Assembly: GCA_039621445.1 (NCBI GenBank)
Contig: CP154954.1
Location: 9,302,634 to 9,366,633, forward strand
Length of the DNA: 64,000 nucleotides
Source of the DNA: Euglena gracilis
Taxonomy: Eukaryota
Direction: 5' to 3'
Shown: positions 59 through 14,680 of the stretch, piece by piece
How the letters are laid out: each line of letters begins with the position of its first letter
Numbering within the stretch: position 1 is the first letter of the stretch
Position numbers and translations under genes: made by a program
Notes under the pieces: generated by a model
What the model was told of the DNA's origin: nothing
Seen by the model: the letters and a program-made list of their open reading frames with translations, nothing else
The model's database searches: none

Positions 59-3000
59 GAGGTCAGCCTTCTCCTCATCAAAGAGTTCATTGTTCAGGGG
101 GGTGCGGTAGGGCTTGTTCCAGAATGACGACACGGCGGCAGCGACTCTGGAAACCGCGGAGGCACGCAGAAACCTATGTCCTCGCAGCACACAAAAACAA
201 TGAAAATTTGCACTTAAGAGCAAGAACAAACTTTCACATGCATGGGTGCATGGACAACGACCCAGCCCCTGGTTTAAGTATCAGACACCCTCACCATGAG
301 TCACCATTTGAAGGTCTCCTCACAGACACCCCTGGGGACTTCAAAGGGAATAAATATAAGACGCCCCTGGAAATATGAAGCAGAATTACAGCCGAAATGA
401 AATTGCACAACGTGCACCAAACAACAGAGTTGAGAAAAGTTTTTTTATTGACCTCAAACTTTTGTAAGGTTTTTTTTAAAAAAGCACAACAGAACATACG
501 GCAAATAGAAAAGATATAGGTAACAACAATCAGTCAGGGAGGCGGGAAAATGATAAATACAAGCCAATTGTGGCCAATTTTAAGTATAAGGCACACGGGT
601 TACGAGCGAGCACATTCACAGAAACGCACACATCACGCACGCACGCGCACGTCCATACACAAACTGAATCCACAAAACACATGTCACGTGTCCAGGTATG
701 AAAGCGTGCAACAAAAGGCCATCGCTGGCTGTACACGCGGGGAGGCTCGGTGGTGTGGATCAGGTTGGAAAGGCTCCAGAACAATGACCCGTACACCCGC
801 ATCAGCTCTGGGACAGCGCCTTGCACTTTTCCAATGCCACCGCCCACAAAATGACAAAAAATTTCACTCTTTTTTGTTGATCAGTGACTGTGTGTGTGGA
901 CTGAAATAGGATGCCACAGTCGGCTCAGAAGCAAGAGAAGTATGCAGCAGCTGACTTTGGCTGTCGTCATCCCACCGGAAAGAAAGGAGAATCCTTTCGC
1001 GCGACTTGGCCGGAGCGGAAACAAAATCAGGAAGCGTCGCACGGGGGCTGGCCCTGGGGTTCACACGCGTCTGCCTTGTTGAGAACCATCCGGAGCTTGC
1101 TCTCAGCGTCAGGGGTTGTTGGAGGTCGGATGAAGCAGAGAGGGGGGATTCTGTGCGGCGAGATTCCCATGCACCAAAATGGCGCAGACAGCAACTTTTT
1201 TTTAAAAAAATTGCCGGGAAGGGATTCGGTCCCATGTAGCCTGCCACCGCAAAACTGGAAAACGTCCAAACCCCGCTCCCCGTTCCAGCAGGGCGGAAGC
1301 ACAAATGGAGACCCCCACGAGTGCGCCAGGCAAACTGCCGAGGAAGGAGGCCGGACCCAACAACGTCTGCCAGTGGCCCCGGAACTGCTGGAACATGTTC
1401 CGCAGCTCCACCCCTGGGAACAGGCCCGACAGTTCCCGAAACACAGCTTCCCACCAGACCCCTCCGCTTCGCTGATCTCCAGAACTTCTGAAATACCGAC
1501 AGGGTCTGGCAAATACCATTGATCACCGACCTGTCACTTTCCACCAGCAAGTGGCTTTTCAAAAACCAGTCACCCACTTCCTCCCCCCCCCAGGAGGGTT
1601 GGTTGCTTTGAACACTCAGGAGGGGGGTTCAGAGCCAAAGCCAGACAGTCACCCCTCGGGTGGGCTCGGGCATACCTTAAGAAATGGTATGGTCTGGCAG
1701 GGTTCAACATGGGGCACTAACTTGCTTATTTGAAATGCAACCTCCCACAAAAGCCTCCCTGGCCAAGATCTACCCACTCCCCCTGTGACAAGTTGGCATC
1801 CAAGATTGCGCCTGCCAACATGGGTGACAAACTGGCATACAAAGTGGTAAAGTGTTGAGGGCCGAAACAATTGTGGATGAGAGAGCATGGATGAACAGGC
1901 GAACCGATGTAAACTGTCCCACTGACAGGTTGGCTGGTACTGGGAACCCGGACGACTTCCTATCATGACAGGTTGGCCAGTGCCAAGGACCCTGAAAGTT
2001 CCCAGGCGGGACCCTGACGTTTTCCCGACCCTGACAGGTTGGCTGGTACAAGGGACCCTAACAGTTTCCTGGACGGGACCCTGACAGATTCTCAGGCATG
2101 ACAGTTTCCCGGGGGGGGGGGGGGTAGGAATGAGCTAAAACTTTTTAAATACAACGGGGGATAAGGACGGCCAAAGGCACACCAGCATCAAGTTTGGAAG
2201 GGTCGAACATAACGAAGATAAGGTCGGAGTGCTCAATGAACCATCGGGCGACCTGCAATGAATGACAGCAAAAATCAGCAGCGTATTTGATTCCCACACT
2301 TATGGAGTACGTCTGTCACATGTATGACTGTTTTAGAGTTCGCGCATACCTTGTGTGGGTGTGGGTGTGCGTGTGTGCGTGCGTGCATGCGTGCATGCGT
2401 GTGTGCGTGCATGTGTGTGTGTGTGTGTGTGTGCGTGCGTGCGTGCGTGCGTGCGTGTGTGTGTGTGTGTGTGTGCGTGTGTGCGTGTGTGCGTGTGTGT
2501 GTGTGTGCGTGTGTGCGTGTGTGCGTGTGTGCGTGTGTGCGTGTGTGCGTGTGTGCGTGTGTGCGTGTGTGTGCGTGCGTGTGCGTGCGTGTGCGTGCGT
2601 GTGCGTGCGTGTGCGTGCGTGCGTGTGCGTGCGTGTGCGTGCGTGTGCGTGCGTGTGTGTGCGTGTGTGCGTGCGTGTGCGTGCGTGTGCGTGTGTGTGT
2701 CGTGTGTGTGCGTGTGTGTGCGTGTGTGTGTGTGTGTGTGCGTGCGTGCGTGCGTGCGTGCGTGCGTGCGTGCGTGCGTGCGTGCGTGCGTGCGTGCGTG
2801 CGTGCGTGCGTGCGTGCGTGCGTGCGTGCGTGCGTGCGTGCGTGCGTGCGTGCGTGCGTGCGTGCGTGCGTGCGTGTGTGTGTGTGTGTGTGTGTGTGTG
2901 TGTGTGCGGGTGGGTGGGTGGGTGGGTGGGTGGGTGGGTGTGGGTGTGTGTGGGTGTGGGTGGGGGGTGCGGGCGGGTGGGGGTGGGTGTGAGTGTGGGT

Positions 3001-6000
3001 TGGTGCGCGCGCTGGCTGTACAAGTAAAACTCAGGACATGTGGCGCCCACCTTGATGTAGTCGTAGTTCCGGGTGTGGACATCCTTGGCGGACTCCAGCA
3101 CCCCCGGGGTGTCGATCAGCGTCACGTTGCGCAGCAGGTCCGCCGGGACCGGGAGCGGGCCGCCATCCGCAGGTTGCGTGGCCACAACCATCCCATTAGG
3201 GACCAGGACTCCGTAGAAATCCCGCAGGGGGGTGGGGATGTGAAAACCCCAACAATGCGCTGAAAATGCGCAAAAAGCGCATTTTTTGGTAATTTTGGAA
3301 ACGCATCCCCCCCCCCCCAAAGCCCAGGGATAAATGCCTTCAACGGGAAAAGTAACGTGGGGTAGGCATGTGTCCCCATGTGCCCCTCACATGACCCCTG
3401 CCCAAGTGCCCTACGAGGAGAATCAGGAAAAAGCTCATGAGCCATGGGTGGCAGGATAGCACCCCGGACCAGTGGGGCTGTTTGATGTTTGACAAGTTTG
3501 CACTGGAGAACCCTCAAGAAGCAGAAAGTGAAAAACAAAAAATCCGAAAACAACCGCAGCAAGTGGGACAAATGGGGGAAGGTCGAAACAAAACACACAC
3601 AAAAAGCAGAGAGAATTTCTCATGGGAAAAACGGAGCATGAGACTTTTGCATGCAAAACAAGGGGTGAAGGAGAAAGATCTATTAAAAAAAGGCAGAAAA
3701 AAATATTCCAGAGTTGGGAAAAATCAAAGAGACACTATTCACACCACACAATCGGAGAACTGCGGGGGAACACACCACAACAACAAACGCACGGTCCGGG
3801 CTGCATGCCCGTGAACGTCTCCAGGAAGCCGTTGCCGTACTCCGCCAGGCCGCGGAACGGCATGTCGGCGTTGGAGGTGAGGATGCGGCCGGACACCGTG
3901 CCCTGCTCCCCGCCGTGGAGGATTGGGGGCGGGGGCTGGTGGGCGAGGGGGCGGCCAGCCGGAAGCCCCTGCTGGGGGTTGTTCCCGTCCTTCGGACTGC
4001 CAGAATATTGCACACTGCAATAGCAAAATGCATAAACCCCCCCCTAATAGTGCTGCGGGGCCAATAGAGCTGCGGGTCCAAATAGTGCGGCACTCCCCGC
4101 CGCCGGAGGCGGCCGTCCAATAGTGCGGCACCCCCCCAAAACATAGCAATGTGAAATGCGTAGAAGCCAGTGCAACCAACTGTAGGCAGCTTTTGTAACC
4201 TGCAGAGAGGGGAAAGGGGGCAAATTCCCACCCGAACAACTCACGGAAGTCGTCCGAAGTTGAAACGCACGACCTCACTAGCCTGAGAGTAGGACATTGA
4301 GCTGGCAAACAGGGTGTCTGTGGTGATAGGCCAGGACTAAGAGGCACCCAGTCCAATAGTGCGGCGGGTCCAAATAGTGATAGGCCAGGACTAAGAGGCA
4401 CCCAGTCCAATAGTGCGGCGGGTCCAAATAGTGCTGCACCCCCCCGCCGCTGGAGGCGGCCGTCCAATAGTGCGGCAGTGCAATACTATTTGGGGGGGGT
4501 TATTCCTGCCCAAATGAAGGATACTATATAACATCAAAATACAAAAAATTAATCGTTAATAATTAATAATCGAAATGATTATTAACTATAATATATAAAT
4601 CAAAAAATGGCTTCAAGTTCCCAAGTATTTTTAACCCAGTACAAATCGTCGTGGTAATCTTTTAAAGACCTATGACGGGGCTCTAAAGTGTGGGAAAGTG
4701 TAGCCCAAAGACAGAGAAGAGCATTAGGCATTCTTAGGTATAAAAAAAAAATGAATTTCCAAGCAAATGAAAAATGTCCTCGGAACTCTCAACTCCCAAC
4801 AATCATGGAAACAAACCACGTTACCCTCCCCCAGCAATCTGAGGTAGGTATCCTTAAGCTGTGAAGCAAGGCAGGGCCTAGCTGACCCAGACTTCAGACA
4901 AACCACGCATGGCAAAGCATGTGTGACGGAATTGTTGCTACATTTCGACGTGCAGCCGACCAAGGGGAAATGTCGGCGATGCCAGCACCCCAATAAGAAG
5001 CCACCCCGGGGTTTCTATTCCCTGGAAGAGTGAGTTGGAGAAAAAAAGGTGGAATAGAGGGGGTGAAGTTGAGTAGTGGGAAATGGGGGGAAGAGGGCCG
5101 TAGTCTGTCACACTGCTGAAAGCCACGGGAGACCAGGGGGTTGGTCATATGAAACCCCTCACCTGCAGCCCTTGACCAAGGGTAGTCGGTGGGCAAATGG
5201 GGGGGGAGGGGGGGGTAGGACCACCGGCCCCCGACCACGGTCCACTTGTCGGTGGTCGGCTGGGGCCCCGTCCACAGGTAGTCGTGGCCGAGGAGGTAGT
5301 TGATGAACGTGGACTTCCCCGCGGAGAAGGGGCCGAGGAAGAGGACGAACGGCTTGGAGGACTTCAGCGTGTCGGCAAACCAGCTCGGCCGGAACACCTC
5401 GTACTGGAACCGCCGCTCCACGGGCTCGATCGGGGGCAGGCGGGGGGCCGCAACGCACGTGTGCGCACGTACGCACATATACGCGCACGCACACTCACAC
5501 AACACAACACACCCACAAATACACACATACACAACACACACACCAACATACGCAACGCAACAGCACAGCACAGCACAGCACAGCGCAGCACAGCACAGCA
5601 CAGCGCAGCACAGCACAGCACAGCGCAGCACAGCACAGCACAACACACACAAACTCCGACACACACACACACACACACATAGATACATACCCTCCCCCCT
5701 TTGTGCAAGACACACCAATGTTCAGGGAATGTGCCATTGACACGGGGGGTGTCAATGACATGGTGTGTCAATGATACTGTCGTTCAATGAAAAAAACCTC
5801 AGGTATTGTTCCGGAAAAAAGCTGTTGACACGGGGGTAGGTGTCAACGGTAAAGTGTGTCAAGGGGGGATACCAGGCTTCTTTTTACCAACCCTGGGGGA
5901 GGGGTGCCATGTGCTATGGGGCGCCTGCCCATAGCAGGCACACCCCCCGGGGGTCGGTTTTATGTCCCAGTGCCTGCCGACCAAGCAACTTTCCTTGAAA

Positions 6001-14368: not shown

Positions 14369-14680
14369 GCGCGCCGGAGGAGGTGAGCTGGTAAACTGCA
14401 CACCATTTTGCCGTGGTATACTTTTGTGGTGATTTTTGAATGGTTTGCTGGTGGTCATGACAAACATGGCAGTCACACAATTCTGTTTGCTGGGCTGGCT
14501 TTGGTCGCAGACAATGCACAATCGCTTGGGGGGAGAAATACCAAAATGAAATGAATCAAATGATATGTAGCGCTCGGGCAGCTGTGGCAGAAAGGTCCAT
14601 ACCGATGCAGATCCGAGCCAAAAGATAAAATGGTCGCAAAGAGAGGACCATCCAAAAAAAGAACTCACCTCCGCCGGGGT
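14369..14680 (-). other. Nonconventional intron 9 of EHD copy B
   Basis: ACC-CCGGCGGAGGTGAGTT...AGCTCACCTCCTCCGG-CGCGC, a 16-bp stem. The join gives KADLMYDLLE. Confidence 0.88.

What the first reader, a model, noticed from the sequence alone, without database searches (positions are those of the whole stretch)
134..14680. Gene dominated by non-GT-AG introns defined by terminal base-pairing
Seen: 11 of the 13 coding introns of the EHD-like gene lack GT-AG. Each has complementary ends at a fixed register (intron +4 pairs with -6), and using that register yields an uninterrupted EHD sequence. Two GT-AG introns coexist in the same transcript. Established: this intron class is characteristic of euglenids and its splicing machinery is not well understood. 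This also assigns the window to a euglenid and explains why the ORF track looks like noise.
Basis: partly seen in the sequence, partly recalled or inferred. Interest (0 to 1): 0.75.

Follow-up and report, generated by a model that had tools for sequence, protein, structure and literature searches.

The report
Euglena nonconventional introns in EHD-like gene

Summary
The intron observation holds; the coordinates do not. The minus strand carries two tandem copies of an EHD/sarcalumenin-like dynamin-family gene (1-8322 is about 95% identical to 14623-23007). Positions 134 and 14680 are the last base of copy B's intron 8 and the first base of copy A's intron 9. The interval therefore holds each of the 13 introns once, but drawn from two genes.

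I set the junctions with a transcript-derived Euglena gracilis protein (P0001). The 14 joined exons read 378 aa without a stop, 377 of them identical to P0001. Only introns 4 and 5 can be GT-AG, and intron 7 has a GC-AG alternative.

All 11 others pair +4..+6 with -8..-6 by Watson-Crick pairs. Each has a 3-nt and a 5-nt spacer and a purine starting the next exon. No other register exceeds 7 of 11, and random pseudo-introns average 1.55 of 11. Five different triplet pairs covary.

This matches the published Euglena nonconventional-intron code (Nomura 2025; Gao 2024), where such introns make up 57-72% of all introns. So the case is real but already known.

No RNA reads could be laid, so junctions are resolved only to the codon. 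Copy A lacks exon 4, and the exons after residue 378 are not in the window.

The parts
1..8322 (-). Tandem unit B. It holds about 2 kb of upstream sequence plus exons 1-9 of the EHD-like gene (6275 down to 59). The gene runs off the left edge of the window.
   Evidence: blastn of the window against itself: 1-8322 matches 14623-23007 at 94-97% identity. tblastn with P0001.
10424..20946 (-). Gene copy A. It has exons 1-3 and 5-14 (residues 1-378 of P0001). Exon 4 is absent and no exon follows residue 378.
   Evidence: tblastn, junction enumeration, alignment of the exon 4 region, motif searches.
5432..6213 (-). Intron 1 in copy B (20087-20884 in A), nonconventional: GGC CAG ... CTG CCCCC|G.
   Evidence: Three protein-consistent borders, none GT/GC-AG. 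Three of 3 Watson-Crick pairs at +4:-6, and the helix runs 7 bp.
3925..5236 (-). Intron 2 in copy B (18687-19891 in A), nonconventional: GGT CGG ... CCG CCCCC|A.
   Evidence: Two borders, GG-CC or GT-CA. The CGG/CCG pair has a 7-bp helix.
3151..3801 (-). Intron 3 (copy B), nonconventional: GCC CGG ... CCG CTCCC|G.
   Evidence: Two borders, and no in-frame GT/GC-AG pair within 40 nt. Pairing.
3051..3150 (-). Exon 4 (copy B only), 100 nt. It encodes ...[10 protein letters not shown]..., part of the dynamin-type nucleotide-binding domain.
   Evidence: tblastn against residues 126-161 of P0001. Exon length.
2253..3050 (-). Intron 4 (copy B), conventional GT-AG: AAG|GTGGGC ... TTGCAG|G. It contains a long GT/CA-type simple repeat.
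   Evidence: A GT-AG pair is among the 7 protein-consistent borders. Only 2 of 3 pairs at +4:-6. Terminal fold energy -1.0 kcal/mol.
1414..2182 (-). Intron 5 in copy B (16045-16809 in A), conventional GT-AG: CTG|GTGTGC ... TCCCAG|G.
   Evidence: A GT-AG pair is among the 9 protein-consistent borders. Terminal fold energy 0.0.
1105..1372 (-). Intron 6 in copy B (15727-16003 in A), nonconventional: TGG CAG ... CTG ACGCT|G.
809..1053 (-). Intron 7 in copy B (15431-15675 in A): GGC CAG ... CTG TCCCA|G. A border shifted by 1 nt would read GC-AG, so the type is ambiguous by letters alone.
   Evidence: Three borders, one of them GC-AG. Three of 3 pairs in register.
134..730 (-). Intron 8 in copy B (14756-15352 in A), nonconventional: AGC CAG ...
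14369..14680 (-). Intron 9 (copy A), nonconventional: ACC CCG ... CGG CGCGC|A. It is paired in register but falls outside the published CDG/CH'G letters.
   Evidence: Eleven of the 12 positions +4..+15 are paired in register.
13614..14334 (-). Intron 10 (copy A), nonconventional: TCC CAG ... CTG CCAGC|G. This is the only protein-consistent border.
   Evidence: One solution. Pairing.
11686..13540 (-). Intron 11 (copy A), nonconventional: GAC CAG ... CTG GGAAC|G.
   Evidence: Six borders, none GT/GC-AG. Pairing.
10999..11624 (-). Intron 12 (copy A), nonconventional: GCC CGC ... GCG CTGAC|A. It is paired in register with letters outside the published code.
10551..10954 (-). Intron 13 (copy A), nonconventional: GGA GGG ... 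CCC CCGCG|G. It is paired in register with letters outside the published code.
10415..10423 (-). Likely donor of a 14th intron: exon ...ATC|CTG CAG AGG, which fits N3-CAG. No acceptor or following exon was found in the window.
   Evidence: P0001 diverges from the window after residue 378. No frame of the window encodes KRLE or RVIRF.
17615..17912 (-). C-rich simple sequence in copy A at the place where copy B has exon 4.
   Evidence: Alignment A1: the copies are identical up to the end of intron 3 and unrelated after it.

Best explanation
The region holds two tandem copies, on the minus strand, of a Euglena (E. gracilis or a very close relative) gene. The gene encodes an EHD/sarcalumenin-type dynamin-family protein and its coding sequence is cut into at least 14 short exons.

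Eleven of the 13 introns are ordinary euglenid nonconventional introns. Intron bases +4..+6 pair with -8..-6, usually as CAG with CTG, and the helix is often longer. This holds the two splice sites at fixed distances from the helix, 3 nt on the donor side and 5 nt on the acceptor side. The downstream exon starts with a purine.

The other two introns (4 and 5) are conventional GT-AG introns, presumably removed by the spliceosome.

Shown here: the borders at codon resolution, the pairing register, the covariation and the spacers. Taken from the literature and not tested here: that this signature is required for removal, that such introns leave as circular RNA after the conventional ones are spliced, and that the enzymes are unknown.
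For: Gene identity. Exon 2 finds EG_transcript_14648 (P0001) at 98% identity, followed by euglenid, diplonemid and kinetoplastid 'sarcalumenin/EH domain' proteins. P0001 has EHD_N, Dynamin_N and DUF5600 above Pfam cut-offs, and window exon 2 alone hits Dynamin_N at 2.7e-10.

Gene model. Fourteen exons join to 378 aa with no stop and 377 of 378 residues identical to P0001.

Borders. GT-AG is possible only in introns 4 and 5, and GC-AG only in intron 7. Within 40 nt of the other junctions, every in-frame GT/GC-AG pair changes the protein length or adds 6-14 mismatches.

Pairing. The +4:-6 register gives 11 of 11, all Watson-Crick, against 7 of 11 for the next best register. Random pseudo-introns average 1.55 of 11, and 0 of 2000 sets reach 11.

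Covariation. Five triplet pairs occur: CAG/CTG six times, CGG/CCG twice, and CCG/CGG, CGC/GCG and GGG/CCC once each. Swapping partners keeps all three pairs in 32 of 110 combinations, and in 2 of 50 for the five non-CAG introns.

Other signature features. The downstream exon starts with a purine in 11 of 11.

Terminal folds. The 10 nt + U7 + 10 nt fold gives -1.8 to -11.8 kcal/mol for the 11 nonconventional introns. The two GT-AG introns give -1.0 and 0.0.

Conservation. Between copies A and B, the first and last 20 nt of six shared introns differ at 3 of 240 columns, against 244 of 3783 interior columns.

Literature. The code N3CDG/CH'GN5-6|R and the 71.8% nonconventional share in E. agilis come from PMC12501133. 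The consensus CCAGG at +3..+7 and CCTG at -9..-6, and 16,151 of 28,337 nonconventional introns in E. gracilis, come from PMC11170887.
Against: No RNA reads were laid, so the junctions are known only to the codon. Within that limit, 10 of the 11 nonconventional introns allow 2-6 border choices, and I picked the one that pairs. The random control used the same number of choices.

P0001 differs from the window at residue 210 and diverges after residue 378. It therefore comes from another copy or allele, not demonstrably from this locus.

Copy A lacks exon 4 and the terminal exons, so it may be a pseudogene or misassembled. All three introns with letters outside the published code come from its unique half.

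Intron 7 could be a GC-AG spliceosomal intron.

Three of the 11 fail the letter rule CDG/CH'G. Per PMC12501133, that rule mattered in knock-in tests beyond mere pairing.
Confidence: 0.9

Rival explanations
1. The non-GT-AG borders are an artefact of misplaced junctions. On this view the real introns are spliceosomal and use nearby GT-AG or GC-AG sites.
For: In-frame, stop-free GT/GC-AG pairs exist within 40 nt of 10 of the 11 junctions. Intron 3 has none. Intron 7 has a GC-AG pair that reproduces P0001 exactly as well as the nonconventional border.
Against: For the other 10 introns, every such pair changes the protein length or adds 6-14 mismatches against P0001. P0001 to P0006 and P0008 are all collinear across these junctions. 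This view also does not explain the 11 of 11 pairing in one register.
Confidence: 0.03
2. The 11 introns are removed by the ordinary U2-type spliceosome, which tolerates divergent splice sites as proposed for Fritillaria. On this view the terminal pairing is only a relic of transposon (MITE-like) inverted repeats.
For: PMC11170887 notes that spliceosome dependence has not been settled experimentally in E. gracilis. PMC12501133 discusses a MITE-like origin. Dispersed short repeats sit inside introns 10 and 11.
Against: The pairing sits at one exact register with fixed spacers and covarying letters. PMC12501133 reports that single substitutions in CAG or CTG, or a 1-nt change in the donor spacer, abolish splicing. 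PMC12621601 cites circular excision products as pointing to a spliceosome-independent route (passage seen).
Confidence: 0.1
3. Neither copy in the window is a working gene. Copy A is a decayed or misassembled duplicate, and the transcript behind P0001 comes from a third locus. The intron features seen here would then be fossils.
For: Copy A lacks exon 4. That exon is 100 nt, so skipping it shifts the frame. No exon for residues after 378 is present. P0001 has T where both copies have A at residue 210.
Against: Exon blocks differ between A and B at only 2 of 732 nt, while intron interiors differ at 6.4% of columns. All reading frames are open. The variant triplets keep perfect complementarity, which decay would not preserve. 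Copy B is intact as far as the window reaches.
Confidence: 0.2

Closest known systems
Euglena nonconventional (NC) introns with the code 5'-N3CDG ... CH'GN5-6|R (Nomura et al., PNAS 2025, PMC12501133; Gao et al., BMC Genomics 2024, PMC11170887; Milanowski et al. 2014 and 2016, search listing only)
   Same: No GT/GC-AG borders. Bases +4..+6 pair with -8..-6. A 3-nt donor spacer, a 5-nt acceptor spacer and a purine at the start of the next exon. They coexist with GT-AG introns in one gene. Eight of the 11 carry the exact published letters.
   Different: Three of the 11 (CCG/CGG, CGC/GCG, GGG/CCC) keep the pairing and spacers but not the letters. The paper itself finds the code in only 61.2% of NC introns. 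Eight of 11 is in line with that share (P(>=8)=0.33).
Conventional U2-type GT-AG introns of Euglena
   Same: Introns 4 and 5 have GT-AG borders and essentially no terminal pairing.
   Different: The other 11 do not. U1 complementarity and the branch site were not examined.
EHD / sarcalumenin family of dynamin-like proteins (Pfam EHD_N, Dynamin_N, DUF5600)
   Same: P0001, which the joined exons match at 377 of 378 residues, has all three domains above cut-off.
   Different: No EH (EF-hand) domain was detected in the full-length relatives P0004 and P0008. The C-terminal part of this gene is not in the window.
Noncanonical introns of diplonemids (PMC12621601)
   Same: Base-paired ends and non-GT-AG borders in a sister lineage (abstract and passages seen).
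   Different: A different lineage. I did not compare registers.

Membership tests
Euglenid nonconventional introns | Borders are not GT-AG or GC-AG | tested here: met
   Ten of the 11 have no GT/GC-AG option among the protein-consistent borders. Intron 7 has one GC-AG option.
Euglenid nonconventional introns | Intron +4..+6 is complementary to -8..-6 | tested here: met
   Eleven of 11, all Watson-Crick. The next best register gives 7 of 11, and 0 of 2000 random sets reach 11.
Euglenid nonconventional introns | Motif letters are CDG at the 5' end and CH'G at the 3' end | tested here: inconclusive
   Eight of the 11 fit (CAG/CTG six times, CGG/CCG twice). Introns 9, 12 and 13 do not. The source paper finds the code in 61.2% of NC introns.
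Euglenid nonconventional introns | Spacers of 3 nt (donor) and 5-6 nt (acceptor), and a purine as first base of the next exon | tested here: met
   Eleven of 11 have 3 nt and 5 nt at a protein-consistent border, and 11 of 11 have a purine. Chance of 11 of 11 purines is about 1.6e-4.
Euglenid nonconventional introns | Removed from the mature mRNA at these positions | tested here: inconclusive
   The transcript-derived protein P0001 is collinear with the joined exons, 377 of 378. No reads could be laid, so the evidence is at codon level and possibly from another copy.
Euglenid nonconventional introns | Excised as circular RNA, later than the conventional introns | not testable with these tools
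   Known from PMC6221363 (abstract) and from Guminska 2021 as cited in PMC12621601.
Euglenid nonconventional introns | Host is a euglenid | tested here: met
   Best hits are EG_transcript_14648 at 98% and EG_transcript_25672 at 91%, then RCo entries at 82-88%. The EG_transcript naming is used in the E. gracilis paper.
U12-type AT-AC introns | AT-AC (or GT-AG) borders with the U12 donor consensus | tested here: not met
   None of the protein-consistent border pairs of the 11 introns is AT-AC.
Conventional spliceosomal introns (introns 4 and 5) | GT-AG borders and no terminal helix | tested here: met
   GT-AG options. Terminal folds of -1.0 and 0.0 kcal/mol. U1 pairing not tested.
EHD / sarcalumenin dynamin-like proteins | EHD_N + Dynamin_N + helical domain (DUF5600) | tested here: met
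   P0001: 2.3e-5, 1.2e-19 and 3.6e-14, all above the curated cut-offs.
EHD proteins in the strict sense | C-terminal EH domain | tested here: not met
   No EF-hand or EH family hit in P0004 (649 aa) or P0008 (577 aa) at E<=0.01. The C-terminus of this gene is absent from the window.

The most novel reading that the evidence does not exclude
Two things go slightly beyond what I found in print.

(1) In all 11 introns the helix register (+k opposite -(k+2)) and the 3-nt and 5-nt spacers place the two cuts 2 nt apart across the helix axis. Both the intron and the exon pair would be left with 2-nt 3' overhangs. Position +3:-5 is almost never paired (1 of 11). A 2-nt 3' overhang is the cut geometry I recall for RNase III-type enzymes. 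It would fit the endonuclease-plus-ligase model that PMC12621601 raises only in general terms.

(2) Three natural introns (CCG/CGG, CGC/GCG, GGG/CCC) keep the pairing and spacers while breaking the published letters. This suggests the machinery reads the helix and its distance to the cuts more than the bases.
Probability: 0.2. Interest if true: 0.55.

Novelty: already known. Interest (0 to 1): 0.15.

Why it matters
The finding explains why this window looks non-coding to ORF-based tools, and it places the window in Euglena. It also gives a clean worked example: 13 introns, both types in one gene, and covarying terminal triplets.

It adds no new kind of intron. The class, the +4/-6 register, the spacers, the purine rule and the genome-wide mix of both intron types are all published (PMC12501133, PMC11170887).

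Eleven of 13 is not unusual against 71.8% in E. agilis (P=0.24). It is only mildly high against 57% in E. gracilis (P=0.037).

The small residual value lies in three code-breaking but paired introns as test cases, and in the tandem copy that has lost exon 4.

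Tried and rejected
RNA read evidence. The look-up of sequencing runs listed no holder on record as RNA. Nothing was laid, so there is no read-level evidence either way.

Whole genome: none is held for this window.

Earlier notes of this scan: none for this genome.

Terminal exons. tblastn with the C-terminal parts of five relatives, peptide motif searches and codon-pattern searches found no exon for residues after 378.

Read-through of exon 14. A search with exon 14 plus its read-through found only P0081, a gene call on unspliced sequence with a frame change against the window, plus P0001. 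There is thus no sign that the read-through is coding.

Comparative genomic loci. A metagenome scan with the family alignment kept 80 loci. The best had 52% identity and was uninterrupted, and the rest were about 26-39% identical. No euglenid genomic relative was available for comparing orthologous introns.

Other genes. Of 164 long ORFs (105 aa or more) that reach beyond position 21000, I sent the 128 longest-looking to Pfam and got 0 hits. The rest of the window was not explored further.

U12-type and antisense (CT-AC) readings were rejected from the border lists.

Full report
What is in the sequence. A self-comparison shows that 1-8322 and 14623-23007 are 94-97% identical direct repeats. 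The similarity ends sharply at 8322 / 23007 and starts at the window edge, so the left end of the repeat is not visible.

On the minus strand, the longest coding piece (5233-5430) finds EukProt entry EG_transcript_14648 (P0001, 388 aa) at 98% identity. Next come EG_transcript_25672 at 91%, RCo entries at 82-88%, and then diplonemid and kinetoplastid proteins named EH domain-containing protein or sarcalumenin. The EG_transcript naming is that of the Euglena gracilis transcriptome paper (passage seen).

P0001 carries EHD_N, Dynamin_N and DUF5600 above Pfam cut-offs. The full-length relatives P0004 and P0008 show no EH domain. 'EHD-like' is therefore fair, and 'EHD/sarcalumenin-type dynamin-like protein' is more exact.

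Gene copies. tblastn with P0001 places two copies.
- Copy B has exons 1-9 at 6275 down to 59 and then leaves the window.
- Copy A has exon 1 at 20946 and runs down to 10424.
- Copy A lacks exon 4. Its sequence is identical to B up to the last base of intron 3 and then becomes C-rich simple sequence. Exon 4 is 100 nt, so skipping it would shift the frame.
- P0001 continues after residue 378 with ten residues that no frame of the window encodes. Exon 14 ends ...ATC|CTGCAG, which looks like the donor of a further nonconventional intron.
- Whether copy A is a truncated duplicate, a pseudogene or an assembly fault is open.

The interval thus contains each of the 13 introns once, but from two genes in permuted order.

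Borders. For each intron I listed every donor/acceptor pair within 24 nt that reproduces P0001 with the fewest mismatches. This leaves 1-9 equivalent borders per intron, the 'slidable' ambiguity that PMC12501133 describes for 84% of Euglena introns.
- GT-AG is possible only for introns 4 and 5.
- Intron 7 has a GC-AG option.
- None has AT-AC.
- A wider scan (40 nt) for in-frame, stop-free GT/GC-AG pairs found candidates near 10 of the 11 other junctions. All of them change the protein length or add 6-14 mismatches, except the GC-AG pair of intron 7.

Joining B's exons 1-9 and A's exons 10-14 at the chosen borders gives 1134 nt and 378 aa without a stop, with 377 of 378 residues identical to P0001.

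Pairing.
- Among 140 registers scanned, the next best has 7 of 11.
- Random pseudo-introns on the same strand, with the same lengths and number of border choices, give a mean of 1.55 of 11 and a maximum of 6. None of 2000 sets reached 11.
- The letters covary: CAG/CTG in introns 1, 6, 7, 8, 10 and 11; CGG/CCG in 2 and 3; CCG/CGG in 9; CGC/GCG in 12; GGG/CCC in 13.
- With partners swapped, all three pairs survive in 32 of 110 combinations, and in 2 of 50 for the five non-CAG introns.
- The helix often extends. Positions +9 and +10 pair in 10 and 8 of 11, while +3:-5 pairs in only 1 of 11.
- The next exon starts with a purine in 11 of 11.
- The terminal fold used by Gao et al. gives -1.8 to -11.8 kcal/mol for these 11. 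The two GT-AG introns give -1.0 and 0.0.
- Between the two copies, the first and last 20 nt of six shared introns differ at 3 of 240 columns against 244 of 3783 interior columns. Exon blocks differ at 2 of 732 nt. Gap columns are not independent, so this is only a hint of constraint.

Comparison with what is known. PMC12501133 (abstract, results sections 5, 7, 8 and 11, and the discussion read) defines the signature 5'-N3CDG ... CH'GN5-6|R by knock-in tests.
- It finds nonconventional introns to be 71.8% of E. agilis introns, with the signature in 61.2% of them.
- It states that many genes mix both types.

PMC11170887 (sections 5, 6 and 10 read) reports 16,151 nonconventional introns of 28,337 in E. 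gracilis. It gives the consensus as CCAGG at +3..+7 and CCTG at -9..-6. PMC6221363 (abstract) reports that nonconventional introns are removed after the conventional ones. PMC12621601 (passages) cites circular excision products and proposes RNase III plus ligase, or a tRNA-splicing-like route.

Eleven of 13 is unremarkable against 71.8% (P=0.24) and mildly high against 57% (P=0.037). Eight of 11 code-conforming introns fits the 61.2% share.

Mechanism. The most likely mechanism is taken from the literature. The terminal helix brings the two junctions together. An unknown machinery cuts 3 nt before and 5 nt after the helix and joins the exons. The intron leaves as a circle, and this happens after the spliceosome has removed introns 4 and 5. 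Only the cis anatomy is shown here.

My own inference is that the 3-nt and 5-nt spacers amount to a 2-nt stagger across the helix. I recall this geometry from RNase III-type cuts. A search for 'Euglena' + 'nonconventional intron' + 'overhang' found no paper in the held library. The PNAS paper contains none of the words RNase, overhang, stagger or ligase.

Limits. No reads were laid, so border choice within the slidable sets is guided by the pairing itself. P0001 is not from exactly this sequence. The three introns with letters outside the code all come from copy A's unique half. No euglenid genomic relative could be fetched for cross-species covariation.

Verdict. This is a correct reading of a known intron class with a misdrawn gene span. 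It is real and ordinary for Euglena.

Noticed in passing
window 1-8322 and 14623-23007: A tandem direct duplication at 94-97% identity carries the 5' two-thirds of the gene plus about 2 kb of upstream sequence. The right-hand boundary is sharp (8322 / 23007). The left-hand boundary is hidden by the window edge.
   Followed up: partly
window 17615-17912 (copy A) versus 3051-3150 (copy B): Exon 4 is replaced in copy A by C-rich simple sequence, starting exactly at the intron 3 / exon 4 border. This is either a real exon loss or an assembly fault in a homopolymer-rich stretch.
   Followed up: partly
window 8323-10423: No exon for the residues of P0001 after 378 lies between copy A's exon 14 and copy B's upstream homology. 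The duplication may have cut the gene inside a 14th intron.
   Followed up: partly
window 7836-7885, 8324-8676, 12232-12422, 13672-14005: A dispersed short repeat with a C-run/G-run palindrome and the motif CCAGTCAGTCAC. Copies lie in introns 10 and 11 and directly beyond the duplication boundary.
   Followed up: no
window 11839-11901 and 12106-12202: Tandem 17-nt units (TAACGACCCCCCATTTA-like) inside intron 11.
   Followed up: no
window about 2330-3030 and 16950-17900; 8968-9071: A long GT/CA-type simple repeat lies inside intron 4 of both copies, with different lengths. A GA/CT repeat lies downstream of copy A.
   Followed up: no
window 10129-10666, minus strand: A Logan-derived gene call (P0081, 198 aa) reads straight through the end of intron 13, exon 14 and the sequence after it. 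It has a frame change against the window, so it is a call on unspliced sequence of this or a sister copy.
   Followed up: yes
window 23000-64000: None of the 128 long stop-free frames sent to Pfam gave a hit, as expected if any genes there are cut into short exons like this one.
   Followed up: partly
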